A model generated the notes under the pieces. It was not told where the DNA came from and made no database searches. It saw only the letters and a list, made by a program, of their open reading frames with translations. Below, piece by piece: positions 4,619-48,341 of a stretch of 64,000 bases of DNA. Within the stretch, counting starts at the first letter, position 1. Each line of letters starts with the position of its first letter. The DNA comes from an uncultured Clostridia bacterium. Its GTDB lineage: Bacteria; Bacillota; Clostridia; TANB77; CAG-508. A program made the position numbers and the translations under genes. The stretch is taken from NCBI GenBank assembly GCA_944393385.1, contig CALYAA010000003.1:29363-93362 (forward strand), in the 5' to 3' direction.

Positions 4619-4643
4619 ATGTAAATTCACCTTCTCTTTTGTT

Positions 4644-28936: not shown

Positions 28937-29001
28937 ATTTATTTTATCCTTTCAATTAAATAAAAATTTAAATTTCAATTAAATCTAATTTTATTTATTA
29001 T

Positions 29002-29968: not shown

Positions 29969-29988
29969 ATTACACCTCCTAACTAGTT

Positions 29989-31197: not shown

Positions 31198-33777
31198 TTA
31201 TTTCGAAAATAGTCTTACTTCATCTGCATATTCTAGTACAGTATTTATATTAATATAATTCTCTGTTCTATTTGTCCTTGAACTACCTGGATCTAATACA
31301 TATACAAGTGTATCTCCACTAAATTTTATACCAACAACTGCTATAAAGTGTCCACCACCTGTATTATATGGATTATAAGGATCTGAATTTGCTTTAATAT
31401 GTACTATTGCAGGATTTCCGGCAGTTAGATGTTCTGTTAATTTTGTTCTAATATTATTTGTATATTTAGTTGCAGAAACTCCAGCAACTGACTGTGCCCA
31501 AGAAAACCACATATCTGTAGCTTCAGGACTAATTTCTGTTGGAGTATATGGTTGTCCTGTACTTGGATTTACTACGCCAAGTCCACTTAAACATGTTGCT
31601 AAAGATGTTCTACCACATATGTTTGTTCCTTTTTCTTGTTTAAAATAGTGATATTCTCTAGATACAATTAATTTACCATCTTGGTCTGTTGTTGTAATTG
31701 TTGTTAGTTTCTCTAAATGCCATGCTGTTCTTCCTGAACCACCTGACTTCTTTCCAGAAGCTGAACTTGTTGCATATGAGTCTACATCTACTGTATATCC
31801 ACTTGTTGAACCATCATAATTGTAACTATAAAGTGAATCTAAAGATAACCCTACAGCAAAGTTTATTTCTAGTTCTTTACTATTATCTGTTAAATACTGA
31901 TATCCACTTAATTCTGCCAGTGTATATCTCATATATCTTTCCAGTTCTTGTGTATTTCCATTTTGCTCTAATAAGGCAAATAGTAAGTAAGATGCTGTTG
32001 ATAAATTATTTTCTACTTGAGGATATTCTTTTATTAAATTTATTATAAAATCTATTTTATAACTACCATTAATTATAGAATATACATGATATTCATTTTT
32101 CCATGTAGCATAATTTTCATATATGAAAAAGTGTGTATTTCTCCATTCATATAGATATGAATAATGGTTAGCCTCACAATGCTTTCCTACAAGAGTTGGA
32201 GGAAAAGGAGTTAATCTATCTACATATTCAACATAATATGGAGCAATTCGTGTTACACTTTGTATTCCATCAAACGGTCTTTCTATATCTCCAACTTTGG
32301 GAATTAATTTATAGTCAATATTCCAAGTATCTGCTTCTATTAAATATAAATCACCCGTATTTTTTATTTCAACATGTAAAAAATCTTTTAATACATATCC
32401 AGCATATTTTAAACATGTTAGATATACTTCTTCTACATTATTTAAATAAGTCCCTTCAATAGTTCCAACCATTTCAGGACCACCCTGGTGAGGATTATGT
32501 GTAGTTTCTGAAACTTCTTCACCTGTTTCTGGATCTGTAGTAGTTGATGTTGTATCAACACAACATTCCCATCTATTCCATCTTTCTACTAAATAATGAC
32601 TTATTGTTCCACCTCTTATTGCATCTTTTTCATCTGTACCATAATTATAATGTTCAAATTCACTTTCTGTTGCTTCTAATAAAGCAACTTCTATATATGT
32701 ATTTTCTTTATTACATTCTTCTAGTAAATCATTCATAAAATCAACATCTTGTGTCATCATATGCATTGCTAAAAAGAAATTTAATGGCGCTGCAGTTTGT
32801 TCTAATAAGTTTAAATATTCATATTGTCTTAATTCAAATGTATTTTCTACTACATCTGCTGTATTATAATAACTTGGTAATAATTCTACTTCTGCTGGAT
32901 CATTTGTTCCAGAATCATCTATTGCTCTTTCTGGTGGTGGATTATTATATTTCCATGTATATTTTTCTTCTGATGTTAACACACACAATTTTAATCCATT
33001 AGGATTAATAGAAAAATATTTTAAATATTCTTCTGTTTGTTCATGAGAATATACAGTTTCTTTTGACATTTCTACTAACTTATCATATGGTATATATTCT
33101 AGTGTAATACCATCTTCAAAGTCAGTACCACCTTCTTCTACAACCTCATATTCGTCTTGAGCATTATAACGTCCAAATTTAGCTGTATATCTTTTTACAA
33201 CAACATTTCCATTTATTGCAGTTTTTGCATAATCACCAATATCTGGCAACATATTTTTTAATTCTGTTCTTATATATTTATCAACAATATTTGTTAATTC
33301 TTCATCAGATTTATATGTTTGACTTTCATCATCTGATGCCATAAAATCATAATCTTCATCTCTTAATCCAAGTGCTAATGTATTTACAGAATATTCTTCT
33401 AATGTTCTTAAAATTCTTAACGCATAATTTGCATTTATTTCATATCCATTTTCTGTAATGGAAACCATATCTATTACATCTGAAGAAGATGCTTCAAAAC
33501 CACTAGCAACACTTGTAGAATTACTTAAACCAATATTTGATTTTTGCTCTTCTTCATCTGTTGTTGATCCACCTGTTGATGATGTTTCTGGTGCAACCGG
33601 TTGTGTGGATATTATTCCTCCACCTGGATCTGCCCAATCCATTGCATCTCCTATTTTATATGAATTTATTATATTTAAATTATTTGCAAAAACATTTCCA
33701 GTTGAAGAGAGCATTATTATAACTAAAAGAGCTATAAATATTAATTTTTTTATTATCTTATTTAATTTTTTCTTCAT
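31198..33777 (-). CDS. Secreted 859-aa protein with a C-terminal papain-fold (peptidase C39-like) cysteine peptidase domain
   Basis: The signal peptide is ...SSTGNVFA/NN. The C-terminus has GTNICGRTSLATCLSGLG (Cys motif), GGGHFIAVVGIKFSGDTLVYVLDPG (His motif) and a following Asp. I do not recognise the roughly 650-aa N-terminal region. Confidence 0.6.
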   Translation of the reverse strand: MKKKLNKIIKKLIFIALLVIIMLSSTGNVFANNLNIINSYKIGDAMDWADPGGGIISTQPVAPETSSTGGSTTDEEEQKSNIGLSNSTSVASGFEASSSDVIDMVSITENGYEINANYALRILRTLEEYSVNTLALGLRDEDYDFMASDDESQTYKSDEELTNIVDKYIRTELKNMLPDIGDYAKTAINGNVVVKRYTAKFGRYNAQDEYEVVEEGGTDFEDGITLEYIPYDKLVEMSKETVYSHEQTEEYLKYFSINPNGLKLCVLTSEEKYTWKYNNPPPERAIDDSGTNDPAEVELLPSYYNTADVVENTFELRQYEYLNLLEQTAAPLNFFLAMHMMTQDVDFMNDLLEECNKENTYIEVALLEATESEFEHYNYGTDEKDAIRGGTISHYLVERWNRWECCVDTTSTTTDPETGEEVSETTHNPHQGGPEMVGTIEGTYLNNVEEVYLTCLKYAGYVLKDFLHVEIKNTGDLYLIEADTWNIDYKLIPKVGDIERPFDGIQSVTRIAPYYVEYVDRLTPFPPTLVGKHCEANHYSYLYEWRNTHFFIYENYATWKNEYHVYSIINGSYKIDFIINLIKEYPQVENNLSTASYLLFALLEQNGNTQELERYMRYTLAELSGYQYLTDNSKELEINFAVGLSLDSLYSYNYDGSTSGYTVDVDSYATSSASGKKSGGSGRTAWHLEKLTTITTTDQDGKLIVSREYHYFKQEKGTNICGRTSLATCLSGLGVVNPSTGQPYTPTEISPEATDMWFSWAQSVAGVSATKYTNNIRTKLTEHLTAGNPAIVHIKANSDPYNPYNTGGGHFIAVVGIKFSGDTLVYVLDPGSSRTNRTENYININTVLEYADEVRLFSK

Positions 33778-33794: not shown

Positions 33795-34787
33795 TTATAA
33801 AGTAACTTGTATAGAAGTATAATTTGAATATGATGTTCTATTATGGGTATCTAAATAATCTTGGTAATCTAATATTACTTTGCTAAATATCATTTTGGTA
33901 GGTTTATTTGAAGCACTGTAAACTTTATTAAATCTTACTGTAACTTTTTTTACAGATCCTGGTTGTACTAAAATATCTCCTTCATCAAATTCGCTATTCA
34001 TAGAACTGTATACAACTTCTTCTTCATTAATTAAATAAACACTATTATCTTCTTCATATCCTGTAAAAGCAATTGTTTTATCAGAATTGTTTTGTAATTC
34101 CATTGTAATTTCTACATATCTACTATATGTATCTATTGTATCAATTTTTACATCAATATCATCAAATACATATCTTGTATTTTTATTTTCACCATAAATA
34201 TAATTATTTACATTTATTTTATAGCTTCCATCATCTTGTTTTACAAAAGTATAGTATTCATCATTAGCTGTAAATTTTGCTCCTCCAGTTGCTAACATAT
34301 CACCATTAAAAGTAACTTTGCATAATACTGTGTTTCCGTCTTGTGATACTCTTGATATTGAATATTCTTGTGGCTCTGCAAATCTTAAATCAATATAATA
34401 TTCTTTAAACGTTTTTGCATCATAATATTTTAATGCTGTTTTACATTCCTCTGTTATCAAATTAAATGCATTCTCTCCATCTCCATTATTACAATAATTA
34501 ACAAATAATTTCATTGTATTTTCTATTGTTTCATTAGATAAATCTGTAACACCTTCATCATTAATATTGTCCATTGTTACATTTTGACCATTTGTATATA
34601 CACTTCCTGTAGTAATATTACTTCCTTCTAGTTCTTTTTGGTTTTCTTCTTCTTTTTTTGCATAATAATAATTTAAACTATAAATTATTATTAATGCAAA
34701 TACTACACCTATTATTACATATATTATTGTTTTTTGATTTTTATTTATAAAACTTCTTAAACTATTAATATTACTCACCTCTTTCAT
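33795..34787 (-). CDS. Bitopic protein: TM anchor, one NTF2-like module, then an Ig-like (DUF4352-type) domain
   Basis: The TM segment is IIYVIIGVVFALIIIYSLNYYYA. The NTF2-like module is LFVNYCNNGDGENAFNLITEECKTALKYYDAKTFKEYY. The beta-rich C-terminus is VEITMELQNNSDKTIAFTG...VQPGSVKKVTVRF. Its start overlaps the upstream stop (ATGA). Confidence 0.5.
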   Translation of the reverse strand: MKEVSNINSLRSFINKNQKTIIYVIIGVVFALIIIYSLNYYYAKKEEENQKELEGSNITTGSVYTNGQNVTMDNINDEGVTDLSNETIENTMKLFVNYCNNGDGENAFNLITEECKTALKYYDAKTFKEYYIDLRFAEPQEYSISRVSQDGNTVLCKVTFNGDMLATGGAKFTANDEYYTFVKQDDGSYKINVNNYIYGENKNTRYVFDDIDVKIDTIDTYSRYVEITMELQNNSDKTIAFTGYEEDNSVYLINEEEVVYSSMNSEFDEGDILVQPGSVKKVTVRFNKVYSASNKPTKMIFSKVILDYQDYLDTHNRTSYSNYTSIQVTL

Positions 34788-37700
34788 TTTAAATAATCAT
34801 ATTCTTCATTATCTTCTACGGTTTCAAAGTCTTGTGCATTTTTTAACATTCCATTATAATATGTTCTTATTTCTTTTGCTGTTTTTGTTGTTCTATTTTG
34901 TTGTACCATTTCATCTATAAAGTTCTTTTTAGCTTGTTGACTTTCTGGCATTCCATATGTATCATTCATATTGTTTCTAAATTTAAATACTTGAACTGCC
35001 ATTTTATCAGCTTCTTCTTCTGTATAAGAATTATGTTGATATCTTAAATAATTTGAGTATCTAAATAATTTCTTTTGTTCTTCAACATCTGTTATTCCTT
35101 GTCTAGCAAATCTATCTCTTGCTCTACGTATCATTTCATTAGATCTTGAACCATATCTTTGCTTATATTTTTCTTGAACATCTTCTCTTTCTGACCAGTC
35201 TTTTGCAATTTGTGCTTTTCTTGATTCTTTTCTTGCATATCTTGTATCTTTTAACATATCTTTAACAGCTCTTTCACCTTTATTGTATACTCTTCCTCCT
35301 GCAGCAAAACCAGCTGCTAATGATGCACCTAATTCTCCAGGTCCATATTTTCCATCTGTTGCACTAATTCCTGCTTGTACTGCTCCAACTGTAACAGCCC
35401 CCATAATTTGAACTGCACCTTTTGCAATCTTTCCTCCTGCTCTAATTAAATTTTCTTTTCCTGATTTATCTGTATCCCAAACAGGGCTTACTGCACTTTG
35501 TGCAACTGCTCCTAAGCCTCTAGCTAGTGAACTGATTTTTCCTCTTTGCTTTGCTCTATCATAATTAATATTTGTTCTAACTGGTTTTCGTTGATATCCT
35601 TGTTGTCCTTTTTCAGAATCTTGTGTATCTTGGTCTGAATCTTGACTTGACTGTGTTCCACCATTTTGTTGATTTCCATTCGTTTGAGCTTGATTTTGTT
35701 GGCCTTGTTGAGTCTGTTGTGAAGTTTGAGAACCAGAACCACCTCCAGCAACTAAACTTGGGTCAGCATCTTGTTGTGTAAAGTCTTTATTTTTTTCAAG
35801 TCTTAATCTTTCTATTTCATCTAATTTAGAATCATATTCTGCATAATTTTTGCTTCTTAATGCCATTTCTGCTTCACATTCTAGCATATCTTCTTTATTT
35901 CCATTAGCTTTGGCTTCTTCATACATTTCTTTTAATTCATCATCTGTTAAATTAGAATATTTTCTCTTTAAGAATGCTTGTGGTCCATTATGCATTCTAA
36001 AGAATTTATTTTCCATCATTCTTCTATTTAATATATTAAAGTAATATTCTGCCATTTTCATATCTCCAGCTTTTATACTGTCTCTCATTTTTTCTAATAT
36101 TTGATTAGAATTTAAATGAGAAAGTGAATCTGTATATTGAAGTGGGATATTTGCTTTATTAAATGGATCTTCATTACGTTTTATAAAGTTTTCCATATAG
36201 TCTAAACGTTTTTTAGTTTTATTATTATATCCTCCTTTGACTCCCATTTGAATTCCATTTAATTTTAATTCATTAAATGCTATTTCAAATTTTTCATTTT
36301 CATCTTTTGCTTTTTCTAAGTCTACATCTGTTAAATTTCTTCTTATATTATAAATATTTTTATCTAAATTTAATGGATTTGAATAATCAATTCCTCCATA
36401 TCTTTTTTCAAATGCTTCATCTTCTTTATCTTCATCATATCCTGAATCTGAACTGCTATTAGTAAAATCATTTTTTGAACTATCTTGTGAATTATATGCA
36501 CTATTTAATCTTCCACTTTGTTTAGGATGAATAATATCTCTAATACCATGTGATATTGAAGACATAACAGCTAAGCTTCCTACTGTTTTTGCTAGTCCGC
36601 CTACTGTTCCACCACTTGCTCTTCCGAATTCAAATATTTTCTTCATTAGTTTTTCCGCTTCAGATAAGAAGAATAATGCAATTATTGCATAAACAGGATT
36701 ATTTACGGCTAATTGTACAGCTCCTCCTATTAATATATTATATAAAAGTAAATGTACTACTTGTAATAATGCATTAAACATATATTCTTTTAACCAAAAT
36801 CCAAAAGTCCTAGATTTTCCTCCATCTAATTTATCTAATGGATACATCATAGCAACAAGTGGTGCACTTAAGGTTAAAAAAGCCATATTTATCATTCTTT
36901 TGAAATATATATATGTAAATTTACATGTTAGAGTTATAAATCCAAAGTAAATCACTATAAATCCTAATTTATTAATTAATGAATTTTGTTGTGATTCAAA
37001 TCTCGCTAACCCCATTATATTAGTTACAAAAGTTTTATCTTGAAAAACAACTTTTACATTTCCAACTGTTGCACTTATTAATGTTGTTAAGTTTTGTATA
37101 AGTGATATTATAAAAGCCATTATATAATGCATAGTAAATACTAGAAATACTGCAACAACCCAATTTATAAAACTCTTTTTATATTCTGCTTTTTTTCCAG
37201 CACTAGAAGTAAGAATAATTCTAATTCCAATATATATCAATATTGATAATAAACCAACTATTGCAATAAGTCTTAATGTTCTATACCATGATGCAACTGT
37301 TCTTCTTATAGAATTCCAACCATCAGAAGAATTATCTATTTCTTGTCCATCTTTAACTGTTTTTCCTCCAATAAAATCTATTCCAAACAAATCAATTTCA
37401 CCTTTAAATATTTCTTCTGGAGTATATTTAAATTCTGGATATCTTAATTCTGGTACAATTCCTTTATTGTTTTTAAATTTATCTATTTCTTCTTGAGTAA
37501 AAGTTTTAGTTGTATTTGCATCTGCAATATCCAAAGAAGAATCTAATTCTCCCCATTTGGGCATTACATACTCAAATGTTGTTCCTAACATGCAACTACT
37601 TAAAACTGACATAATTGCATCTCCTACAGCCATTAACATTTCCAATAATAATGATAAAATGGTACCTGTATCATCATCAACATCTGAAGATAAGTTGTCA

Positions 37701-37894
37701 TCATCTGAATTTGTATATGCATCATCTGGATCAATTACTTCTTCAATTTGGCTTGGCAGTTGTTCTGTTTGGTCAATTGGATTTCCTTCTTCATCTACCG
37801 GATAAGCATATGAAATGTCAATATATAAATATGGAAACATCAAACAAATTAAAATCATACATACCAAAACTTTTTTTAGTTTATTTATTAGCAC
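34784..37894 (-). CDS. VirB6-like polytopic T4SS membrane protein, paralogue 3 (1036 aa, most divergent)
   Basis: It shares the core with paralogues 1 and 2: YPEFKYTPEEIFKGEIDLFGIDFIGG, ASWYRTLRLIAIVGLLSILIYIGIRI, MHYIMAFIISLIQ, RMINMAFLTLSAPLVAMMYPLDK, WLKEYMFNALLQVVH and NPVYAIIALFFLSEAEKLMKKIFEFGRASGGTVGG. It also has an extra roughly 230-aa insert, a Q-rich linker, and the C-terminal motif SPVWDTDKSGKEN...VGAVQAGISATDGKYGPGE. Confidence 0.7.
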   Translation of the reverse strand: MLINKLKKVLVCMILICLMFPYLYIDISYAYPVDEEGNPIDQTEQLPSQIEEVIDPDDAYTNSDDDNLSSDVDDDTGTILSLLLEMLMAVGDAIMSVLSSCMLGTTFEYVMPKWGELDSSLDIADANTTKTFTQEEIDKFKNNKGIVPELRYPEFKYTPEEIFKGEIDLFGIDFIGGKTVKDGQEIDNSSDGWNSIRRTVASWYRTLRLIAIVGLLSILIYIGIRIILTSSAGKKAEYKKSFINWVVAVFLVFTMHYIMAFIISLIQNLTTLISATVGNVKVVFQDKTFVTNIMGLARFESQQNSLINKLGFIVIYFGFITLTCKFTYIYFKRMINMAFLTLSAPLVAMMYPLDKLDGGKSRTFGFWLKEYMFNALLQVVHLLLYNILIGGAVQLAVNNPVYAIIALFFLSEAEKLMKKIFEFGRASGGTVGGLAKTVGSLAVMSSISHGIRDIIHPKQSGRLNSAYNSQDSSKNDFTNSSSDSGYDEDKEDEAFEKRYGGIDYSNPLNLDKNIYNIRRNLTDVDLEKAKDENEKFEIAFNELKLNGIQMGVKGGYNNKTKKRLDYMENFIKRNEDPFNKANIPLQYTDSLSHLNSNQILEKMRDSIKAGDMKMAEYYFNILNRRMMENKFFRMHNGPQAFLKRKYSNLTDDELKEMYEEAKANGNKEDMLECEAEMALRSKNYAEYDSKLDEIERLRLEKNKDFTQQDADPSLVAGGGSGSQTSQQTQQGQQNQAQTNGNQQNGGTQSSQDSDQDTQDSEKGQQGYQRKPVRTNINYDRAKQRGKISSLARGLGAVAQSAVSPVWDTDKSGKENLIRAGGKIAKGAVQIMGAVTVGAVQAGISATDGKYGPGELGASLAAGFAAGGRVYNKGERAVKDMLKDTRYARKESRKAQIAKDWSEREDVQEKYKQRYGSRSNEMIRRARDRFARQGITDVEEQKKLFRYSNYLRYQHNSYTEEEADKMAVQVFKFRNNMNDTYGMPESQQAKKNFIDEMVQQNRTTKTAKEIRTYYNGMLKNAQDFETVEDNEEYDYLK

Positions 37895-37919
37895 TTTCTC
37901 ACCTCTATTCTTTTTTAGA

Positions 37920-40900
37920 TTAATTATTTGTTATTCTATCAAATGTTCTAATTGCTGCACTTATATTCATTTCTTGTCTTCTTATTCTTGCAACTTGATT
38001 TTGTCTTACTGTTTGTTGAGGTCCTAATCCACGTTGAGAAACATTTCTTCCTCCTTGAGGAGCTTGTTGTGGAGAAGTCATACCTTGTTGTGGGCCTAAT
38101 CCTGGATGATTACCAAGTGATTGAGTTAAAGAGTGTATATATCTTTCTTCTTTTCTCTTATTATAAGAAGCAGCTGATGCATGAATTTTTGCTCTTTTTC
38201 TTTTTTGGGACATTATATACATTGCAATAACATCTTGCTTTTTCTTTTCTTGTTTTAATGATTTCTTTTTCTGTGTTGGATTTAAATATGTTCTATTTTT
38301 ATTAACTTCTTCTGCTACTGCATTTGCATATTTTATTCCTTGTTTTATTTCTTTTAAATCTATATATCCTCTTGTTACATAATTATCTACAATTCTTTCT
38401 CTATATTCTTTCCATTCATCACCATAATTATCTTTACAAAATTGTATTACATCATCTCTATTTTTAAATTCTTCTTTATATACTTCCATTTTTTCAGGTT
38501 TAGTTAGACCTTCTCTATATCCTTCTTCAAAAGTATTTGTTACGCCATCTACTCCTCTACCAACTAATGCAAATCCTGCAGCAAATGCTGCGGCTCCTTC
38601 TGCTGGATTATATTTACCGTCTGTTAAGCTTATACCTGCCTGTACTGCTGCTGCTGTTAGACCAACACTTATTCCAATTGTTCCTTTAATTACATTTCTA
38701 ATTAGTCTTTTTCCATTATATTTTCCACTTCTATCAAAGTCCCAAATTGGTTTTACCATTCTCTTTCCTATTGATCTAGTACCTCTAGCAATTTTTGTAT
38801 TTGCTAAATATATTGCTCTTTGACCAGTTTTGGAATCTCTAACATTATTAGCTAATCTTCTAATTGGTTGTAACTTTGGTTGAATTTTATTAATTATAGG
38901 ATTTGTTTTCTTTTCTGGCTCATTTAATTTTCCTACTAATCTCGGTCTACCAGATGGTCCAAATGCAAACATAGGTGAATCCACTTCTTGTTCATCTGAT
39001 ATTGTATTTACTGCTGGATTATTATTAATTACTGGATTATCTGTTATAATATTACCGTTATTTACAGTACTAACATTATTAATACTAATATTATTATTAT
39101 CATTACTATCATTACTATCTGATATATTCTCTCCTGCTGAAATAAAATCACTGTTGTCATCTTTATAGTCTCTATTTATTGGTCCAGGGAAAGACATAGA
39201 ATGTGTTGAATTTGTATTAATTTGTTTACCAACTCCAGATAATTTTTTAGCACCATGTACAAGTGCAAGTCCAGAAAAAGCTGTTCCAAGTCCTCCAACA
39301 GTTCCTTCATGTGCTTTATCAAATCCAAATATTTTTCTTATTAACCTTTCTGCCTCTGTCATAAATGCTAAAACTGCAATTGCATAAAATGGATTATCAA
39401 CAGCTATTTGAATTGATGAAAATACCATTATATAATATAATAAATAATGCATTGGTTGTAATAAAGCATTAAAGAAAAATTCTTTTAACCACATCGTAAA
39501 GCCTTGTGCTTTTCCATCTAAAGACTTATCTATTGGATATGTAAATGCAACAAATGGTGCTATCACTGTTAAAAATGCCATATATATAACCCTTCTTATA
39601 TATACAAAAGTAAATTTAAAAGTATAAACAACAAGCATTATATACATTATTTCATATCCAATTTTTAAAGCAATTAAATCATATTGTGTGCAAAATCTTA
39701 CTAATCCTATAAGGTTAGTACTAAATGATTCATAACCATTTCCTGCTGCAACTCTTAAAATTGGCATTACAGAAATCATTTTCTCATTAAATTGATTAAT
39801 TACTGTTATAATAAATGCCATAAGATAATGCATTGTATATAATATTGCAATCCCAATAATCCAATCAATTATCCATTGCTTATATTTAGATTTGTCTTTT
39901 ACATTTGATGATATAATTATTTTTATTCCTATATATATTAATACACATAAAAATCCTACTGTTGCAATAATTCTTAATGCTTTATACCAACTTGCTATTG
40001 TTTTTCTAACAACTCCTAGCCCCTCTGCTTGATCTACACCTGATATAAAATCTATATTTAATAAACTAATTTGTCCAGAAAAAATTTCTTCAGGGCTATA
40101 ATGTATATGTGGATATTCTGTACTTCCAATTTTTGCAGTTATTCCAATATTACAATCTATTTGGTTTGTTGATAAATCAAACATTGTATCTATATTTCTA
40201 CTATCTACTACTCTAAGTTTATCTATATAATTAGTTTTTACATAATTAGTTATTTTATTTTGATCTGTTACATCTGAATACATTACTTTTTGTAATACTG
40301 CTAAAAGTGTATCTACAACACAATTTACTAAGAAGAATAGTGGTTTTAATAAAACTCCTCCTATGTCCCAGTCCGTATCTCCTTCATATACTTGTCCATT
40401 AACAATAACTTCATTTGTTGAATTTACATTATTTGAATCTGATGCATTTTGATTATTTTGTTCATTATTGTCTATGCCTGTATTTTTTACAACATCTATA
40501 TTTCCAATTGTAATAGTTGTATATGCTCCTATCTGATTTAAAGCTGATTCATGTGATTTATCTGCTCCTGTTGTAATATTCATATCAAAGCCTAATATAA
40601 TTGTTGTATTATCATCTATTTTTATTTGTTTACCTGATGAACTTATTTCTTCTATTGCTGTTCCATTATTTAAGTCTATTTCACAAATTTCTGCTAATTC
40701 TTCAACTGTACCTTTATAATTATATTTTTCTTCGAGTTGACTTCTTAAAGCCTCTACAGCTTGTCTTTTAATATCCATATAATATTGTTGTCCAACCCCA
40801 TCAATTGTAATTTCTATATCTTCTAAAGATTCTGTTGTACTTGCAGCAAAAGCCATATAATTAAATATCCAGTTAAGTAAAATTACGGTAATTATTGTAA

Positions 40901-40934
40901 TTATTAATATTCGGTTAAAAATTTTATTTTTCAT
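37920..40934 (-). CDS. VirB6-like polytopic T4SS membrane protein, paralogue 2 (about 1004 aa)
   Basis: Motifs are YPHIHYSPEEIFSGQISLLNIDFISG, ASWYKALRIIATVGFL, MHYLMAFIITVINQFN, RVIYMAFLTVIAPFVAFTYPIDK, WLKEFFFNALLQPMH and NPFYAIAVLAFMTEAERLIRKIFGFDKAHEGTVGG. It has an N-rich linker. The C-terminal domain is KPIWDFDRSGKYNGKRL...AAAVQAGISLTDGKYNPAEG...NRDDVIQFCKDNYGDEWKEYR. Confidence 0.7.
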   Translation of the reverse strand: MKNKIFNRILIITIITVILLNWIFNYMAFAASTTESLEDIEITIDGVGQQYYMDIKRQAVEALRSQLEEKYNYKGTVEELAEICEIDLNNGTAIEEISSSGKQIKIDDNTTIILGFDMNITTGADKSHESALNQIGAYTTITIGNIDVVKNTGIDNNEQNNQNASDSNNVNSTNEVIVNGQVYEGDTDWDIGGVLLKPLFFLVNCVVDTLLAVLQKVMYSDVTDQNKITNYVKTNYIDKLRVVDSRNIDTMFDLSTNQIDCNIGITAKIGSTEYPHIHYSPEEIFSGQISLLNIDFISGVDQAEGLGVVRKTIASWYKALRIIATVGFLCVLIYIGIKIIISSNVKDKSKYKQWIIDWIIGIAILYTMHYLMAFIITVINQFNEKMISVMPILRVAAGNGYESFSTNLIGLVRFCTQYDLIALKIGYEIMYIMLVVYTFKFTFVYIRRVIYMAFLTVIAPFVAFTYPIDKSLDGKAQGFTMWLKEFFFNALLQPMHYLLYYIMVFSSIQIAVDNPFYAIAVLAFMTEAERLIRKIFGFDKAHEGTVGGLGTAFSGLALVHGAKKLSGVGKQINTNSTHSMSFPGPINRDYKDDNSDFISAGENISDSNDSNDNNNISINNVSTVNNGNIITDNPVINNNPAVNTISDEQEVDSPMFAFGPSGRPRLVGKLNEPEKKTNPIINKIQPKLQPIRRLANNVRDSKTGQRAIYLANTKIARGTRSIGKRMVKPIWDFDRSGKYNGKRLIRNVIKGTIGISVGLTAAAVQAGISLTDGKYNPAEGAAAFAAGFALVGRGVDGVTNTFEEGYREGLTKPEKMEVYKEEFKNRDDVIQFCKDNYGDEWKEYRERIVDNYVTRGYIDLKEIKQGIKYANAVAEEVNKNRTYLNPTQKKKSLKQEKKKQDVIAMYIMSQKRKRAKIHASAASYNKRKEERYIHSLTQSLGNHPGLGPQQGMTSPQQAPQGGRNVSQRGLGPQQTVRQNQVARIRRQEMNISAAIRTFDRITNN

Positions 40935-41016
40935 CACATCACCTCATTTTCTCAAAAGTAACTTTTTTAATTACACTCCTTTTTTATAAAGGAGTGTAAT
41001 TCCTAAAAATCACTTT

Positions 41017-43848
41017 TTAGTCTTTTACTATACTATTATAATATCTAATTGCTGCATCTTCTCCTCTAATTCGTTTTGCTTCTTTTTCTGGATCTTCTGC
41101 ACCTTGTGATTTTGCTGCAATATATGTATTTTCTTTATTCTTATCATATACAGTTCCTAAAGAGCCTTCTGCTTGTTTTCTTCTTTGTACATTCTTTATA
41201 GACATTGCAGAAATATCATTCTTTTCATATATTTCTTTTCTTTGACTAGGTGTTAAATTTTCAACATCTCCAGAAATTTTATTAGAATATTTTATCATTT
41301 CTTTCATTTCTTTCAAATCTGTAAATCCTCTTGATACATAATTATCTGCCATTCTATCACGATATTCTTTCCATTCTTCTCCATAATTATCTTTACAGAA
41401 TTGTATTACATCATCTCTATTTCTAAAATCTTCTTGGTAAGCAGCCATTTTTTCTTCTTTAGTTAATCCATCATTATATCCTTCTTCAAATGTATCTGCA
41501 ACACCATCTATTTTTCTAGATGCTAATCCATATCCTGCAGCAAATGCGGCAACTCCTTCTGCTGGATTATATTTTCCATCTGTTAAACTTATACCAGCTT
41601 GTACTGCAGCTGCTGTAATACCAACTCCAGCTCCAACAACTCCTTTGGCTATTTTTCTAACTAATCTTTTCTTATTATATTTTCCTGATCTATCAAAATC
41701 CCAAATTGGTCTTACAGCTCTCTTTCCTAAAGCTCTTGCACCTCTATAGGCTTTTTGTCTAACAGATAATGGTTGCTGTTGTTGTCTATTTGTATTGGTT
41801 GAACTTGAAATTATTTGGTTATTTCCTGCATCAGGACCACCTGTTCCAGGTCCTCCTGCTCCAGGTCCTCCACCAGAGCTTCCTCCGCCAGAGCTTCCTC
41901 CGCCAGAATCTCCTCCACCAGAGCCTCCTCCGCCAGAGCCTCCTCCTCCAGAGCCTCCTCCACCAGAGTCTCCTCCGCCAGAGTCTCCTCCGCCAGAGCC
42001 TCCTGAACCATTAGAATCTCCTATTAAAACATTTCCTGCATTAACATTTTCATTCATAGTTATTCCTGTTTTATAATCTTTATTAGTTGCTCCTGGGAAA
42101 TTCATTCTTCCTTGTGAAGAATTTCCTCCAGCTTTTCCTCCTCTACTCATTAGACCTCTTAAACTTGTAGCGATTGCTGCTGCAGCGAATGCATCTTGCA
42201 TACCTTTAACTGTTCCTCCAGAAGCTTTATCAAATCCAAATATTTTTCTTAATAATCTTTCTCCCTCTGCCATAAATGCTAGTACTGCAATTGCATAAAT
42301 TGGGTTTTCTGCTGCAATTACTACTGATGAACCTACTAATATGTAATATAATATAAAGTGCATTGGTTGTAATAAAGCATTAAAAACATATTCTTTAAGC
42401 CACATACTAAATCCTTGTGCGTTTCCATCTGATAATTTATCTAATGGATATGTAAATGCTACTATTGGGGCAATTAGTGTTAAAAAAGCCATATTGATAA
42501 CCCTTTTTAAATATATGAACGTAAATTTTATCGTATATGTTGTTAGCATTACATAAATAATTAAATAACCTAATTTAAATATACTTACATCTGATTGTAT
42601 ACAAAATCTTACTAAACCAATTAAATTAGTATTAAATGTTCCACTTATATTACCTCCTATACCAGTAACAGTTGATTGAACTTGTATATATTGCATAGAC
42701 CTATTTAATCCATCATTAAATTGTTGTATAACAGTTATTATAAAGCTCATTATATAATGCATACAAAATAAAATTCCTAAACCAATAAACCAATTTATAA
42801 TCCATTCTTTATATTTAGCTTTATCCTCAGCCGTTGAACTTATCATAATTCTAATACCTGTATATATTAAAATTGATAAAAATCCTACAACAGCAATTAA
42901 TCTTAATGTTTTATACCATGATGCAATAACTTTTCTTACACTTGCTAATCCTTCTGTTTGTCCTTCACCAGAAATAAAATCTATTCCTAATATACCAACT
43001 TTTCCAGAAAATATTTCTTCACAACTATAATGAATATGTGGATATTTAAATTCCCAAATTCCATGTTCAATACGTACACTAATACTAGAATTTGCTCCAA
43101 CACTATCAAATTCTGCATCAGAACTATCTGTTGTCATGATATCAAATGCACTACTTACTACAGTTGCAATAGTACCAATAGGTCCATTCATATCTTCACC
43201 TTTATACATTACACTTTGTAGTACTGCATTAATAGCATCAAATATTGCTGCAACAATTGCAAACAAAGCATTAAATAAAACTCCTCCAAATGTATCTAAT
43301 GCATTACCTCCATCCCAAATATCTGCACCTTGTCTTTTATCATTTTCAATTTTATCTTCAACAGTTTGCTCTAATTTATCTCCAACTTGTTCTAATGCAT
43401 CCTCATTCGTTGCTCCATTATTTAAAGCGTCATTATATTCTTCAACAGCATTATTTACTAAATTATATATATTCTGATATTGTCCTTCTGTAATTAAATC
43501 TTTAGGAAAATTTGATTCCCAAAATCCACCCATATAAAGTGCATTATTTATATCTTCACTTCTTTCATTTTCAGGAATCATTGAATAAGCAAGCCATTTT
43601 GTTGTTGCATCATAATACTCATCTCCATATTCACTACGTGAAGGTTGTCTTCCTGGTTCTAATACGTTAAGTTCACTAATTATTGTATCTAATATATCTT
43701 CATTGTCTAATTCTATGAGAGTATTTTTTAAATCATCATAACTACTTGCATATACTCTATAAGGAGAGAATACATTTAGAATAATTATAATTACTAAAGC
43801 AAATGCTATAATTCGTTTTGATAAAGTATTAAATGATTTTTTTAACAT
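41017..43848 (-). CDS. VirB6-like polytopic T4SS membrane protein, paralogue 1 (943 aa) with a Gly-rich repeat linker
   Basis: The signal peptide is ...YRVYA/SS. The core motifs match paralogue 2 (YPHIHYSCEEIFSGKVGILGIDFISG, MHYIMSFIITVIQQFN, NPIYAIAVLAFMAEGERLLRKIFGFDKASGGTV). The linker is GSGGSGGGDSGGGDSGGGGSGGGGSGGGGSGGGDSGGGSSGGGSSGGGPGAGGPGTGGPD. The C-terminal domain is conserved. Confidence 0.7.
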   Translation of the reverse strand: MLKKSFNTLSKRIIAFALVIIIILNVFSPYRVYASSYDDLKNTLIELDNEDILDTIISELNVLEPGRQPSRSEYGDEYYDATTKWLAYSMIPENERSEDINNALYMGGFWESNFPKDLITEGQYQNIYNLVNNAVEEYNDALNNGATNEDALEQVGDKLEQTVEDKIENDKRQGADIWDGGNALDTFGGVLFNALFAIVAAIFDAINAVLQSVMYKGEDMNGPIGTIATVVSSAFDIMTTDSSDAEFDSVGANSSISVRIEHGIWEFKYPHIHYSCEEIFSGKVGILGIDFISGEGQTEGLASVRKVIASWYKTLRLIAVVGFLSILIYTGIRIMISSTAEDKAKYKEWIINWFIGLGILFCMHYIMSFIITVIQQFNDGLNRSMQYIQVQSTVTGIGGNISGTFNTNLIGLVRFCIQSDVSIFKLGYLIIYVMLTTYTIKFTFIYLKRVINMAFLTLIAPIVAFTYPLDKLSDGNAQGFSMWLKEYVFNALLQPMHFILYYILVGSSVVIAAENPIYAIAVLAFMAEGERLLRKIFGFDKASGGTVKGMQDAFAAAAIATSLRGLMSRGGKAGGNSSQGRMNFPGATNKDYKTGITMNENVNAGNVLIGDSNGSGGSGGGDSGGGDSGGGGSGGGGSGGGGSGGGDSGGGSSGGGSSGGGPGAGGPGTGGPDAGNNQIISSSTNTNRQQQQPLSVRQKAYRGARALGKRAVRPIWDFDRSGKYNKKRLVRKIAKGVVGAGVGITAAAVQAGISLTDGKYNPAEGVAAFAAGYGLASRKIDGVADTFEEGYNDGLTKEEKMAAYQEDFRNRDDVIQFCKDNYGEEWKEYRDRMADNYVSRGFTDLKEMKEMIKYSNKISGDVENLTPSQRKEIYEKNDISAMSIKNVQRRKQAEGSLGTVYDKNKENTYIAAKSQGAEDPEKEAKRIRGEDAAIRYYNSIVKD
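41866..42000. repeat. Nine tandem 15-bp units (tcctccgccagagcc and variants) encoding (GSGGG/GDSGG)n
   Basis: I read the units directly in register at 41866, 41881, 41896, 41911, 41926, 41941, 41956, 41971 and 41986. They form a GC-rich island in an AT-rich genome. Confidence 0.9.
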
Positions 43849-45897: not shown

Positions 45898-47050
45898 TGC
45901 CTTCTCCTCCTTCCTTTGTAGCTTGTTGTTGTTTTCTTCTTACTTTAACTTTTGCATCTTCTGCTATATCTTGTCCAATATAGTCTTGGTTTTCTGAAAT
46001 TAATTGTTCAGCAAAGTCAAAGATTAAGTTCTTAGCATTTTCTTCTCTTATTCTAATCATCATTTCTTTATCACTTCTTGCTTCTGAAATTGCCTCATTT
46101 GCGACTTTTAATCCTTCGTCTTCAATTTGTTTATTTATTAATTTCATCTTTTTATCTAATACATCTGGTGCTGTTGAATATAATGCGTCAAATCCTGCAT
46201 TCAAAGCCATTTTTGTACTAAATATGTCAGAATCTTCTCTATTATATGCATTATATAATAATTCTACTAAGGCTCTAGAATCAAGTATTTTGCTATTAAC
46301 TTCACACCTTTGCAAAGTTCTCATAACAGATCTTGCCCTAGTATATAATTCATTGAAAACCATATTTTGAATTTCATCTTTTGAATAATTTTGTGTGGTA
46401 ACTTCACTTTCATAATAAGAAATGATAATATAATATTTTTTATGTAATACATTACTATTTAAACTACTTTTCTCTGTATCTGCTATTATATCTTTTGTAT
46501 ATTCATATTTATTTCTTTGTCTTACATACTCAAAATATGCTTTATATATTTCTTTTTCTGAATATATTCCTGGTTCAGCTTCTTTCATTTGTAAATATTT
46601 ATTTTGTAAAACATTATATTTATCTTCTATATCTCTGAACTTTAATTTATATTCTCTAATACTATCCTCTAAATTTACCGTTCTTGTTTGTACATATATT
46701 TGGATTTCAAATTTTAAAGTATTTAAAAATTCTATAAAACCTTGTTCTACAGCTGTCATTTCCATTTCTGACATTAAGTCGAAGTTAATTCCTTGACATT
46801 CTAAAACCATTAAATATTTGCCATTTTTTTGTATTATCATATTATCTTCAACTTTTTCAAACTCCATAAATTCCATTATATTTTTAATGTCATATACACC
46901 ATTAATTTTTTTATTTTGTTCAGATTCTTTTGCTTTTTTCTTTTCTCTATAAATTATAAAAATCCAAAATCCTGCCAATACAAAAATTATAACTACTAAA
47001 ATTATAGCAATTACTGTTAATACGGGAATTAACTCTTCTGGATTACTCAT
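45845..47050 (-). CDS. Membrane-anchored coiled-coil protein with a VirB4-N-terminal-like segment (T4SS accessory, unknown function)
   Basis: It has an N-terminal TM segment (LIPVLTVIAIILVVIIFVLAGFWIFIIY). It also has IIQKNGKYLMVLECQGINFDLMSEMEMTAVEQGFIEFLNTLKFEIQIYVQT and a basic C-terminal tail. It overlaps both neighbours. I prefer the start at 47050 (AAGGAGGAG SD). Confidence 0.55.
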   Translation of the reverse strand: MSNPEELIPVLTVIAIILVVIIFVLAGFWIFIIYREKKKAKESEQNKKINGVYDIKNIMEFMEFEKVEDNMIIQKNGKYLMVLECQGINFDLMSEMEMTAVEQGFIEFLNTLKFEIQIYVQTRTVNLEDSIREYKLKFRDIEDKYNVLQNKYLQMKEAEPGIYSEKEIYKAYFEYVRQRNKYEYTKDIIADTEKSSLNSNVLHKKYYIIISYYESEVTTQNYSKDEIQNMVFNELYTRARSVMRTLQRCEVNSKILDSRALVELLYNAYNREDSDIFSTKMALNAGFDALYSTAPDVLDKKMKLINKQIEDEGLKVANEAISEARSDKEMMIRIREENAKNLIFDFAEQLISENQDYIGQDIAEDAKVKVRRKQQQATKEGGEGNEQEEKKTRRRRTTTKQ

Positions 47051-47457: not shown

Positions 47458-47511
47458 AAAAAAAAAAAAAACATTTTATGATAAAAAATATCATAAAATG
47501 TCCTTTTTTTT
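47458..47511 (-). terminator. Strong hairpin terminator or attenuator between the pilin-like genes and the rest of the T4SS cluster
   Basis: The 13-bp stem is acattttatgata / tatcataaaatgt. On the minus strand it is followed by a T13 run. An extended -10 (TGTTATAAT, 47443-47451) lies just downstream. Confidence 0.65.
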
Positions 47512-47875: not shown

Positions 47876-47929
47876 AAAAACTCCTCCTTTTTATTTTTAA
47901 CTTATATATATAAATTTCATTAACAAATT

Positions 47930-48325: not shown

Positions 48326-48341
48326 ATTTCTCACCCCTTTG

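What the first reader, a model, noticed from the sequence alone, without database searches (positions are those of the whole stretch)
34784..43848. Three tandem giant VirB6-like paralogues (943, 1005 and 1036 aa) with divergent ectodomains, different low-complexity linkers and a shared novel C-terminal domain
All three share a polytopic core. Its motifs can be aligned by eye:
- YP[HE][IF][HK]Y[ST].EEIF.G....L.IDFI.G
- ASWY[KR].LR.IA.VG.L
- MHY.MAFII
- R.I.MAFLT..AP.VA..YP.DK
- W.KE..FNALLQ
- NP.YAI..L.F..EAE.L..KIF.F..A.GGTVGG

The N-terminal extracytoplasmic segments are unrelated to each other. They run about 250 aa in paralogues 1 and 2 and about 100 aa in paralogue 3.

The linkers differ in composition: Gly-rich in paralogue 1, Asn-rich in paralogue 2, and Gln-rich plus a 230-aa insert in paralogue 3.

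All three end with a conserved domain of about 250 aa (P[IV]WD.D[RK]SGK.N....G..VGA.QAGIS.TDGKY.P.E; in paralogues 1 and 2 also NRDDVIQFCKDNYG.EWKEYR). I cannot assign it to a known family.

Tandem enlarged VirB6 paralogues with C-terminal extensions are established for Rickettsia, Anaplasma, Ehrlichia and Wolbachia. I do not know of them in Firmicute T4SSs.
Basis: partly seen in the sequence, partly recalled or inferred. Interest (0 to 1): 0.75.

Follow-up and report, generated by a model that had tools for sequence, protein, structure and literature searches.

The report
Three tandem extended VirB6 genes
Three neighbouring giant membrane-protein genes are real, diverged copies of the VirB6 channel/platform subunit of a type IV secretion machine. 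The machine is fixed next to the chromosome's replication origin in uncultured gut Clostridia. Large VirB6 proteins are ordinary in Gram-positive systems, but tandem copies with different outer domains were not found described there.

Summary
Three minus-strand ORFs (943, 1005 and 1036 aa) share a polytopic core (38-40% identity) and a C-terminal region (32-35%). Their N-terminal ectodomains show no detectable similarity, and their linkers are Gly-, Asn- and Gln-rich respectively.

The VirB6 reading holds, but only at profile level.
- The core aligns over 243 columns with the TrsL/TrbL_4 family, the Gram-positive VirB6 (hhalign 93%, E 3e-7; reversed, shuffled and unrelated controls ≤0.6%).
- The best structural matches by TM-score are R388 TrwI/VirB6, though they are not significant.
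- These are the only polytopic proteins in an operon ordered 3 VirB2-like pilins, VirB3, TrsD-like, VirB4, giants, cell-wall hydrolases.

No Pfam TrbL model is passed, and TcpH is unrelated.

Large size and C-terminal extensions are not new. "Extended VirB6" proteins of 700-900 aa are standard in Firmicute systems, and single-copy homologues of 850-1360 aa sit on Clostridium and Bacillus plasmids.

Three things appear unreported:
- repeated tandem duplication confined to one subclade (at least 10 of the 78 related loci held);
- paralogue-specific ectodomains under purifying selection;
- a setting in an origin-adjacent chromosomal T4SS with no relaxase in the cluster, resembling the Patescibacteria system.

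The C-terminal region matches nothing known and occurs only in this family.

The parts
41017..43848 (-). Paralogue P1 (943 aa), extended VirB6-like. Signal/anchor is residues 1-34. The P1-specific ectodomain is residues 35-186 (43291-43746). The polytopic core is residues 262-565 (42154-43065). The Gly-rich linker is residues 566-714 (41707-42153). The C-terminal region is residues 715-943 (41020-41706).
37920..40937 (-). Paralogue P2 (1005 aa; likely start is the ATG at 40934). The ectodomain is residues 33-190 (40368-40841). The core is residues 270-570 (39228-40130). The Asn-rich linker is at 38781-39227. The C-terminal region is at 37923-38780.
34784..37894 (-). Paralogue P3 (1036 aa), the older 'distal' copy. 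The short ectodomain is residues 31-78 (37661-37804). The core is residues 150-452 (36539-37447). The 225-aa helical insert is residues 491-715 (35750-36424). The Gln-rich stretch is at 35525-35749. The C-terminal region is at 34787-35497. The stop codon overlaps the start of the next gene by 4 nt.
41866..42004 (-). 15-nt tandem repeat (9.3 copies) that encodes the GGGxS linker of P1.
43915..45897 (-). VirB4-type ATPase (660 aa).
   Evidence: Pfam P-loop_TraG, DUF87 and AAA_10. NCBIfam CD1110-family VirB4 at 210 bits, below its cut-off. 42% identical to the homologue on C. botulinum plasmids.
45845..47077 (-). TrsD-like protein (410 aa, one TM). It resembles the N-terminal part of VirB4.
   Evidence: Weak NCBIfam match to the N-terminal part of VirB4_plasma. 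Present as a separate gene in all 78 loci. The same arrangement is described for pGO1 and for Patescibacteria.
47043..47402 (-). VirB3/PrgI-like small membrane protein (119 aa).
   Evidence: Weak PrgI hit at 17 bits, below the gathering cut-off. Conserved position in all loci.
47510..48794 (-). Three VirB2-like pilin genes: 48342-48794 (150 aa), 47930-48334 (134 aa) and 47510-47875 (121 aa).
   Evidence: The 121-aa protein passes Pfam gathering for TrbC (35.2 bits) and T4SS_pilin (31.2 bits). The other two are below threshold. Each has a signal-like segment plus two TMs. The trio is conserved in most of the loci whose sequence extends upstream.
33795..34787 (-). Bitopic protein (330 aa) of unknown role. 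It follows the giants in nearly every locus.
31198..33777 (-). 859-aa protein with a C-terminal Peptidase_C39_2 domain. Probably the cell-wall hydrolase (VirB1 role).
   Evidence: The C. botulinum plasmid counterpart carries C39_2 plus a 3D domain.
27668..31176 (-). Distal operon genes: 395 aa, 184 aa, a 140-aa weak NlpC/P60 match (20.8 bits, below the 23-bit cut-off), and 422 aa.
2543..4630 (-). VirD4-type coupling protein (695 aa), encoded about 23 kb from the cluster among housekeeping genes.
   Evidence: Pfam T4SS-DNA_transf at 297 bits.
49704..50015 (-). Two tRNA-Ser genes between parB and the first pilin gene. Possibly the ancient integration site of the cluster.

Best explanation
P1, P2 and P3 are three diverged tandem copies of the "extended VirB6" subunit of a Gram-positive (MPF_FATA-like, pGO1-type) type IV secretion system.

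**The system.** It is fixed in the chromosome beside oriC in a lineage of uncultured, low-GC, spore-forming gut Clostridia. Relatives include Clostridium sp. CAG:508, which names a major TANB77 family, and Candidatus Merdicola, which I recall from GTDB as also being placed in TANB77.

**What is shown.**
- The roughly 300-aa polytopic core is a remote homologue of TrsL/TrbL_4.
- The genes lie in one co-oriented block, with no consensus terminator found inside it, ordered 3 VirB2-like pilins, VirB3, TrsD-like, VirB4, giants, hydrolases.
- All three copies are under purifying selection.
- The distal copy (the P3 lineage, which carries the 225-aa insert) arose first.
- The proximal copy duplicated again, independently, in at least three lineages.

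**What is inferred.**
- By analogy with R388 TrwI, each protein contributes its core to the oligomeric platform or translocon that sits on the VirB4 ATPase. VirB2-like pilins or substrates would pass through that platform.
- The cleavable-looking signal sequence places the paralogue-specific N-terminal domain outside the membrane.
- The positively charged stretch after the last hydrophobic helix places the low-complexity linker and the shared C-terminal region in the cytoplasm. There the region could dock onto VirB4, TrsD or VirD4.
- Three cores with a common cytoplasmic end and different outer domains would let the cell build either mixed oligomers or alternative machines that differ in what they contact on the outside.
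For: **Homology of the core**
- hhalign of the family core (A3) against a 5-sequence TrsL-family alignment gives 93.1% probability, E 3.3e-7, over 243 columns (P1 272-537 against TrsL 30-278).
- Reversed, column-shuffled and unrelated membrane-protein controls give at most 0.6%. TcpH gives 1.8% and TrsF 0.3%.
- TrsL itself matches TrbL_4 (PF19597) at 72 bits.
- The core aligns with the Bacillus, Cytobacillus and C. botulinum plasmid giants at 98.1%, E 8e-14. Those giants align with the TrsL family at 94.5%.
- Family member P0055 matches TrbL_4 along its full length at 20.6 bits.
- blastp of TrsL against P2 gives E 8e-6.

**Structure**
- The AlphaFold2 core has pLDDT above 90.
- TrwI/VirB6 chains give the highest TM-scores in the PDB search: 0.42-0.50 normalised by target, over about 270 columns. 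Rhodopsins score below 0.2.

**Context**
- Identical gene order in all 78 related loci.
- No other polytopic protein in the cluster.
- The same operon position is annotated "type IV secretion system protein" and "TraG N-terminal domain-containing" on plasmids.

**Chromosomal and vertically inherited**
- The cluster follows mnmG-rsmG-parA-parB in the window and in 8 loci whose flank reaches far enough.
- dnaA and dnaN lie about 10 kb away.

**Duplication history:** NJ tree; insert distribution.

**Selection:** dN/dS 0.06-0.16 in the core and 0.08-0.46 in the ectodomains.

**Orthologue comparison:** ectodomains are 86-95% conserved for P1 and 61-92% for P2 and P3, against L002 and L001.
Against: - No Pfam or NCBIfam VirB6/TrbL model is passed by P1-P3. 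The only Pfam hit is T4SS_pilin on the first TM hairpin, and only P1 exceeds the gathering score.
- The Foldseek matches to TrwI are not significant (E 1.6-5.2, probability 0.14-0.35).
- A profile search of PDB sequences finds only low-complexity noise.
- The TrsL profile rests on five sequences.
- Topology and cytoplasmic placement of the C-terminal region come from the positive-inside rule, not from a dedicated predictor. A Gly/Ala-rich hydrophobic stretch in the C-terminal region (P1 737-757) could be a further membrane segment that puts the last 185 aa outside.
- Nothing here tests oligomer state, co-assembly or expression.
- Assignment of the window itself to TANB77 rests on the record titles of relatives.
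Confidence: 0.75

Rival explanations
1. The proteins are primarily pilin-related. The first TM hairpin of each giant is a VirB2-like pilin module fused to a membrane anchor. The giants would then act as pilus-base or pilin-like structural subunits rather than as VirB6.
For: - Pfam T4SS_pilin (PF18895) matches the TM2-TM3 hairpin in all 25 family members scanned. P1 scores 27.5-29.8 bits against a gathering score of 26.6.
- The core HMM picks up the small pilin ORFs upstream in most loci at 22-36 bits.
- NCBIfam pLS20_p028 hits the same stretch weakly.
Against: - The same hairpin lies inside the 243-column alignment with TrsL/TrbL_4, so it is part of the VirB6-type core.
- The proteins are 7-8 times the size of a pilin and carry at least four further hydrophobic helices.
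- P2 and P3 fall below the gathering score.
- Two-helix hairpins with a Lys-rich loop are compositionally easy to match.
Confidence: 0.1
2. The three genes belong to a recently integrated conjugative element (ICE). They serve ordinary conjugation, and the extra copies are transient redundancy on the way to pseudogenisation.
For: - The cluster lies next to two tRNA-Ser genes, which are classic ICE integration sites.
- The VirB4 and the giant family have homologues on Clostridium and Bacillus plasmids.
- A VirD4-type coupling protein is present in the window.
Against: - The cluster keeps the same gene order in all 78 species-level loci. It keeps the same parB-adjacent position in the 8 loci whose flank reaches parB. 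At least 533 stretches in species-representative genomes encode a relative.
- No relaxase or integrase was found among the ORFs scanned in the window.
- There is no GC discontinuity.
- All three copies have intact ORFs and dN/dS well below 1 in every structured domain.
- The paralogue-specific ectodomains and the P3 insert are conserved in orthologues.
Confidence: 0.1
3. The extra copies are not machine subunits. They are surface or secreted products: adhesins or effectors that reuse a VirB6 membrane core as an anchor, with extensions released by cleavage.
For: - Each paralogue has its own conserved extracytoplasmic domain.
- Long flexible linkers flank the domains.
- This idea comes from my recollection of processed VirB6 paralogues in Ehrlichia. 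It was not checked here.
Against: - The core is the most strongly constrained part of every copy (dN/dS 0.06-0.16). That argues for a conserved machine role in all three.
- No protease site, sortase motif or cell-wall anchor was seen.
- Nothing was tested directly.
Confidence: 0.1

Closest known systems
TrsL (pGO1/pSK41) and TraL (pIP501): the TrbL_4 (PF19597) family, the VirB6 homologue of Gram-positive MPF_FATA conjugation systems
   Same: - The polytopic core is homologous along nearly its whole length (hhalign 93%, 243 columns).
- Both sit in operons with a VirB2-like pilin (TrsB matches T4SS_CagC at 55 bits), a VirB3-like protein, TrsD, a VirB4 ATPase, a cell-wall hydrolase and a VirD4.
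   Different: - TrsL is about 305 aa with no ectodomain and no tail. It is encoded after VirD4 rather than after VirB4, and it is single-copy and plasmid-borne.
- The window proteins do not reach the TrbL_4 gathering score.
Single-copy giants at the same operon position on Firmicute plasmids: C. botulinum pINGR16-02E1 (853 aa), a Bacillus pacificus plasmid (1326 aa, annotated 'type IV secretion system protein') and a Cytobacillus firmus plasmid (1361 aa, annotated 'TraG N-terminal domain-containing')
   Same: - Same family (hhalign 98%, E 8e-14; HMM 47 bits).
- Same neighbours: pilin, PrgI-like, TrsD-like, DUF87/VirB4, giant, peptidoglycan hydrolase.
- Long hydrophilic C-terminal extensions.
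   Different: - One copy per cluster.
- Plasmid-borne.
- The C-terminal region of the window family was not detected there.
- Only about 21-27% identity in the core.
Rickettsiales rvh T4SS VirB6 paralogues (RvhB6a-e in Rickettsia; VirB6-1 to -4 in Anaplasma and Ehrlichia)
   Same: - Tandem arrays of enlarged VirB6 genes (Rickettsia: 1055, 674, 971, 886 and 1154 aa around a roughly 413-aa VirB6/TrbL domain; PMC2653234).
- A chromosomal T4SS in organisms with reduced genomes.
   Different: - Diderm Alphaproteobacteria with an MPF_T system.
- An independent expansion: this is analogy, not orthology.
- The extensions are unrelated in sequence.
Extended VirB6 of MPF_FA elements: TcpH (pCW3), ConG (ICEBs1), Orf15 (Tn916)
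   Same: - 700-900 aa polytopic proteins with unstructured extensions (PMC12857230).
- On pCW3, TcpH lies two genes after the VirB4 homologue, with the glucosaminidase-domain hydrolase between them. For ConG and Orf15 the position next to VirB4 and a hydrolase is from my memory only.
   Different: - No detectable sequence or profile similarity to TcpH.
- Those systems lack the VirB2-like pilins and TrsD.
- They are single-copy and belong to mobile elements.
Patescibacteria (Saccharibacteria) chromosomal T4SS
   Same: - A monoderm T4SS that is chromosomal and often near dnaA.
- Usually without a relaxase.
- A TrsD homologue next to VirB4.
- Arrays of divergent VirB2-like pilins.
- VirD4 encoded elsewhere (PMC12102498; PMC12857230).
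- The window shows all five traits.
   Different: - A different phylum.
- No VirB6 multiplication is reported there.
- Essentiality is shown only for Southlakia epibionticum.
- Direct sequence relatedness to the window system was not tested here.

Membership tests
VirB6/TrbL superfamily (Pfam TrbL PF04610, TrbL_4 PF19597) | Match to a family HMM at or above its gathering score | tested here: not met
   P1-P3, as full proteins and as isolated cores, give no TrbL-family hit even at E ≤ 10. The best family member (P0055) reaches 20.6 bits against a cut-off of 27.
VirB6/TrbL superfamily (Pfam TrbL PF04610, TrbL_4 PF19597) | Profile-profile homology to bona fide members across the core | tested here: met
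   hhalign 93.1%, E 3.3e-7, 243 columns against the TrsL family. TrsL itself scores 72 bits on TrbL_4. Controls give at most 1.8%.
VirB6/TrbL superfamily (Pfam TrbL PF04610, TrbL_4 PF19597) | Polytopic protein with about 5 or more hydrophobic helices | tested here: met
   Kyte-Doolittle scan. The AlphaFold2 model shows long hydrophobic helices at 299-336, 340-384, 422-465, 478-512 and 516-536 with pLDDT mostly above 85.
VirB6/TrbL superfamily (Pfam TrbL PF04610, TrbL_4 PF19597) | Encoded within a T4SS gene cluster alongside VirB4 and VirB3 | tested here: met
   Directly downstream of VirB4 in the window and in all 78 loci.
VirB6/TrbL superfamily (Pfam TrbL PF04610, TrbL_4 PF19597) | Fold similarity to a solved VirB6 (R388 TrwI) | tested here: inconclusive
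   TrwI chains have the highest TM-scores (0.42-0.50 normalised by target) and probabilities of 0.14-0.35, among the highest listed. E-values are 1.6-5.2.
VirB6/TrbL superfamily (Pfam TrbL PF04610, TrbL_4 PF19597) | Pentameric platform under VirB5/VirB2, in contact with VirB4 | not testable with these tools
   No multimer prediction is available.
Extended VirB6 subfamily | VirB6 core plus one or more large hydrophilic domains | tested here: met
   Ectodomain, low-complexity linker and a roughly 230-aa C-terminal region in each copy, plus a 225-aa insert in P3. Definition taken from PMC12857230.
TcpH/ConG/Orf15 (MPF_FA VirB6) | Sequence or profile similarity to TcpH | tested here: not met
   HMM and blastp find nothing. 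hhalign gives 1.8%. ConG and Orf15 were not tested.
VirB2/T4SS_pilin (PF18895) | Match above gathering score, and pilin architecture (about 100-150 aa: signal peptide plus two TMs) | tested here: inconclusive
   P1 scores 27.5-29.8 bits against 26.6. P2 and P3 are below threshold. The architecture is clearly not that of a pilin.
Conjugative element (ICE or plasmid) | Relaxase, and an integrase or replicon, associated with the T4SS genes | tested here: not met
   None was found in the window ORFs scanned. Ten ORFs of at least 100 aa outside the cluster were not scanned, and the rest of the genome was not seen.
Patescibacteria-type domesticated T4SS | Chromosomal and ori-proximal, TrsD next to VirB4, a VirB2-like pilin array, no relaxase nearby, VirD4 elsewhere | tested here: met
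   compared with the description in PMC12102498. Phylogenetic affinity was not tested.

The most novel reading that the evidence does not exclude
These uncultured gut Clostridia (relatives belong to the reduced-genome order TANB77) may carry a domesticated, origin-proximal, pilus-forming T4SS that plays the role the Patescibacteria T4SS plays: an obligate or near-obligate cell-to-cell interaction rather than conjugation. In one subclade the VirB6 platform subunit has been duplicated repeatedly. Its extracellular domains have been replaced so that the machine can engage different partner cells or surfaces. This would parallel the independent VirB6 proliferation in obligately host-associated Rickettsiales.
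Probability: 0.25. Interest if true: 0.8.

Novelty: new variant of a known kind. Interest (0 to 1): 0.55.

Why it matters
**VirB6 as a platform.** VirB6 is the least understood core subunit of type IV secretion. The R388 structure recast it as a pentameric platform for pilus growth (PMC12857230), and the function of "extended" VirB6 proteins is explicitly stated there to be unknown. A natural series of one, two and three copies, with the same core and tail but swapped outer domains, is a ready-made comparative experiment on what the extensions do.

**A chromosomal T4SS in gut Clostridia.** The host cluster shows that VirB2-like pilins and a chromosomal T4SS with no relaxase in its cluster are not confined to Patescibacteria among monoderms. 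Relatives of the source organism belong to TANB77, a prevalent, never-cultured gut order linked to immunotherapy response (PMC11680825). Its cell-surface machinery is therefore of practical interest.

Tried and rejected
- **Megablast of the 9-kb region against plasmids:** no match.
- **tblastn of the core against plasmids and phages:** no match. The link to plasmids came only through VirB4 and profile searches.
- **PHROGs:** nothing relevant, so a phage tape-measure reading is rejected.
- **PDB sequence searches:** with P1, only GGGGS-linker artefacts. With the A3 profile, only low-complexity noise.
- **Foldseek of the C-terminal model against PDB and BFVD:** nothing.
- **TcpH of pCW3:** no similarity.
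- **TrsF of pGO1** (same operon position as the giants): bitopic and unrelated.
- **Pfam on the Bacillus and Cytobacillus giants:** only TrbL at E 0.06, so their GenBank product names could not be reproduced.
- **Precomputed PF19590 and PF26635 labels** on some homologues could not be reproduced with the Pfam copy at hand. I did not rely on them.
- **Third homologue search,** seeded with the C. botulinum protein: only 3 hits.
- **Promoter and terminator scan:** uninformative in this AT-rich DNA. Counts equal the shuffled expectation.
- **The TANB77 "conserved pilin" paper** (PMC11680825) concerns a Tad-type pilus cluster, not this T4SS.
- **A frameshifted VirB4** as the explanation for the 410 + 660 aa pair: rejected, because the split is conserved in all loci and matches TrsD.

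Full report
**1. The observation**

Each start has a good ribosome-binding site. For P2 the ATG one codon downstream of the GTG is the likelier start.

Pairwise blastp gives:
- P1/P2: 40% identity in one alignment spanning nearly the full length.
- P1/P3: 40% over the core and 32% over the C-terminus.
- P2/P3: 38% over the core and 35% over the C-terminus.

The N-terminal segments taken alone score no better than shuffled sequence (z between -1.0 and -0.5). The linkers are 36% Gly (P1), 19% Asn (P2) and 25% Gln (P3), and P3 also carries a 225-aa insert. The P1 Gly linker is a 15-nt tandem repeat of 9.3 copies.

**2. What surrounds the genes**

The window is the replication-origin region of a low-GC (about 26%) spore-forming member of the Clostridia.
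- dnaA and dnaN lie on the plus strand at 59.8-62.6 kb (assigned from ORF size and position, not scanned), and GC skew flips there.
- On the minus strand run jag, mnmE, mnmG, rsmG, parA and parB, followed by two tRNA-Ser genes.
- Then comes one co-oriented block with no minus-strand terminator-like site inside it:
  - three small VirB2-like pilins; the 121-aa one passes Pfam TrbC and T4SS_pilin;
  - a PrgI/VirB3-like protein;
  - a 410-aa one-TM protein resembling the N-terminus of VirB4;
  - a 660-aa VirB4 ATPase;
  - P1, P2 and P3;
  - a 330-aa bitopic protein;
  - an 859-aa protein ending in a Peptidase_C39_2 domain;
  - three further small or bitopic membrane proteins and a 140-aa soluble weak NlpC/P60 match.
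- Sporulation and housekeeping genes follow.
- A VirD4-type coupling protein (Pfam 297 bits) sits 23 kb away among dnaJ-like, mur-ligase, ypeB and dnaX genes.
- No relaxase or integrase was found in the ORFs scanned.

**3. Relatives**

- The core has hundreds of unnamed homologues in gut metagenomes.
All 78 loci returned come from uncultured gut Clostridia, apart from one MAG labelled Erysipelotrichaceae. They include Clostridium sp. CAG:508 and Candidatus Merdicola.
- CAG-508 is a major family of the uncultured, reduced-genome order TANB77 (PMC11680825).
- In all 78 loci held the gene order is the same. In the eight whose flank reaches far enough, the cluster follows parB directly.
- The 410 + 660 aa split is conserved. 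It corresponds to the TrsD/VirB4 pair described for pGO1 and for Patescibacteria.

The cluster is therefore a vertically inherited chromosomal T4SS, not a recent ICE.

**4. Copy number and history**

- About 67 of the 78 loci have one giant (750-960 aa).
- Two copies occur in L005 and L009-L011.
- Three copies occur in the window and in L001-L004. One MAG, split over L006 and L007, has at least three.
- An NJ tree of the core shows the distal copy (the P3 lineage) as an old duplicate shared by all multi-copy genomes. The proximal copy duplicated again independently in the window/L001-L003 lineage, in L004 and in the L006/L007 MAG.
- The 225-aa insert marks the distal lineage.
- Each paralogue's ectodomain is conserved in its orthologues: 86-95% for P1 against L002 and L001, and 61-92% for P2 and P3. 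It is absent from the other paralogues.
- dN/dS is 0.06-0.16 in the core, 0.13-0.37 in the C-terminal region, 0.08-0.46 in the ectodomains and 0.44-0.60 in the linkers.

All three are maintained, specialised genes. This is not hypervariation and not decay.

**5. Is the core VirB6?**

Direct library searches say little.
- Pfam gives only T4SS_pilin on the first TM hairpin, and NCBIfam gives only a weak pLS20_p028 hit there.
- PDB sequence searches are empty.

The link to known VirB6 proteins came in steps.
- The VirB4 is 42% identical to one on C. botulinum plasmids. There the same operon holds a single 853-aa protein that the family HMM recognises at 47 bits.
- That protein in turn finds giants of 1326 and 1361 aa at the same position on Bacillus and Cytobacillus plasmids. 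These are annotated "type IV secretion system protein" and "TraG N-terminal domain-containing".
- In pGO1 the protein at the same position (TrsF) is bitopic and unrelated. The plasmid's TrbL-family protein TrsL (72 bits on TrbL_4) is the only Trs protein that matches the giants.
- hhalign of the family core against TrsL alone gives 68%.
- Against a five-sequence TrsL-family alignment it gives 93.1%, E 3.3e-7, over 243 columns.
- Reversed, column-shuffled, YidC and Gate-domain controls give at most 0.6%. TcpH gives 1.8% and TrsF 0.3%.
- Core against plasmid giants gives 98.1%, and plasmid giants against TrsL give 94.5%.
- The AlphaFold2 model of P1 1-575 is confident in the core. Its best PDB partners by TM-score are the TrwI/VirB6 chains of R388 (0.42-0.50), though not significantly so.
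- No other polytopic protein exists in the cluster.

I conclude that the core is a remote TrbL_4-type VirB6 homologue. It fails the curated HMM thresholds, so it is better called a new, divergent branch than a plain member.

**6. The C-terminal region**

- An exhaustive HMMER search of 1.84 billion cluster representatives finds 85 proteins. Every one of 536 aa or longer also carries the core.
- With a more sensitive setting, weak colinear matches appear at the C-termini of about 20 of the single-copy members. The region is therefore ancestral to the family and fast-evolving, not unique to the triplet.
- AlphaFold2 folds the last 150 residues or so as a confident helical bundle. The most conserved stretch (PIWDxDRSGKxN ... 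AVQAGISxTDGKY) comes out below pLDDT 50.
- Foldseek finds nothing in PDB or BFVD.
- Its role is unknown. I infer a cytoplasmic docking function from the positive charge after the last core helix and from the cytoplasmic C-terminus that I recall for Agrobacterium VirB6. This is untested.

**7. Comparison with what is known**

- Extended VirB6 proteins of 700-900 aa are described as typical of MPF_FA systems, and their extensions are stated to be of unknown function (PMC12857230). Size alone is not novel.
- Tandem enlarged VirB6 paralogues are established for Rickettsiales (PMC2653234). My literature searches found no such report for monoderms.
- The same reviews state that VirB2 is absent from Gram-positive T4SSs except in Patescibacteria. 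Yet this Clostridial cluster, the C. botulinum and Cytobacillus plasmid clusters and pGO1 TrsB all carry VirB2-like genes.
- The cluster shares five traits with the Patescibacteria T4SS: ori-proximal chromosomal location, TrsD next to VirB4, a pilin array, no relaxase nearby, and VirD4 elsewhere.

**8. Verdict**

The finding is real and the VirB6 reading is right at superfamily level. The claim of novelty needs narrowing. The following appear unreported in the literature I could search:
- repeated tandem duplication of an extended VirB6 in a monoderm;
- stable paralogue-specific outer domains combined with a shared, family-specific tail;
- a setting inside a conserved chromosomal T4SS of an uncultured gut lineage.

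How the copies work together is inference only.

Noticed in passing
window 2543-4630 (-): A VirD4-type coupling protein (Pfam T4SS-DNA_transf, 297 bits) is encoded 23 kb from the T4SS cluster, among housekeeping genes (dnaJ-like, Mur ligase, ypeB, dnaX). Patescibacteria show the same separation of VirD4 from virB4.
   Followed up: partly
window 47510-48794 (-); L083 25115-25432; L079 9225-9641; L081 1739-2110: Three VirB2-like pilin genes head the operon. Recent reviews say VirB2 is absent from Gram-positive T4SSs except in Patescibacteria. Pilin-like genes also head the homologous plasmid clusters, and pGO1 TrsB matches Pfam T4SS_CagC at 55 bits.
   Followed up: partly
window 49704-49793 and 49924-50015 (-): Two tRNA-Ser genes (anticodons GCT and TGA) lie between parB and the first pilin gene. 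This may be the ancient integration site of the whole cluster. No integrase or flanking repeat was looked for.
   Followed up: no
window 45845-47077 (-) and 43915-45897 (-): VirB4 appears as two genes that overlap by 53 nt: a 410-aa one-TM protein with N-terminal VirB4 similarity, and a 660-aa ATPase. The split is conserved in all 78 loci and on the plasmids, so it corresponds to the TrsD/TrsE pair and is not a frameshift.
   Followed up: yes
window 41866-42004; proteins P0003-P0033: The P1 Gly linker is a 15-nt tandem repeat. In a related species, near-identical homologues vary in length from 673 to 740 aa because of different Pro/Gln linker lengths. This suggests strain-level slippage in the linkers.
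   Followed up: partly
window about 40971-40999 (-), between P1 and P2: A 12-bp perfect inverted repeat (TTACACTCCTTT ... AAAGGAGTGTAA) lies in the 79-nt gap after the P1 stop codon. No T-run follows, so it is not a canonical terminator. It could be an mRNA-processing or stabilising hairpin that sets the P1:P2 ratio.
   Followed up: no
P1 residues 305-370, P2 312-368, P3 199-258; small ORFs upstream in L001-L078: The first TM hairpin of each giant matches Pfam T4SS_pilin. The core HMM also picks up the neighbouring small pilin ORFs at 22-36 bits. Either VirB6-type cores and these pilins share a hairpin module, or the pilin model is compositionally permissive.
   Followed up: partly
P1 residues 715-793 (window about 41470-41706): The most conserved stretch of the C-terminal region (PIWDxDRSGKxN, then the Gly/Ala-rich AVQAGISxTDGKY) is the part AlphaFold2 cannot fold (pLDDT below 50). 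It may be a membrane-embedded hairpin or a partner-binding segment.
   Followed up: no
P1 ectodomain (window 43291-43746) against L001 5471-8311: Between the window and L001, synonymous divergence of the P1 ectodomain (dS 0.26) is far lower than that of the P1 core (dS 0.74). This hints at recombination or exchange of the ectodomain segment between lineages. It rests on a single comparison.
   Followed up: no
window 31198-33777 (-) and 29002-29424 (-); L079 15665-17713: The probable VirB1-role proteins are an 859-aa protein with a C-terminal Peptidase_C39_2 domain and a 140-aa protein with a weak NlpC/P60 match (20.8 bits, below the 23-bit cut-off). The C. botulinum plasmid counterpart combines C39_2 with a 3D domain. 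C39-like peptidases are not the usual T4SS cell-wall hydrolase type.
   Followed up: no
L003 10593-12878: The P1 orthologue in MAG UBA10678 is a 762-aa stop-to-stop ORF that lacks the signal sequence and the ectodomain. This could be an assembly error, a frameshift or a real truncation.
   Followed up: no
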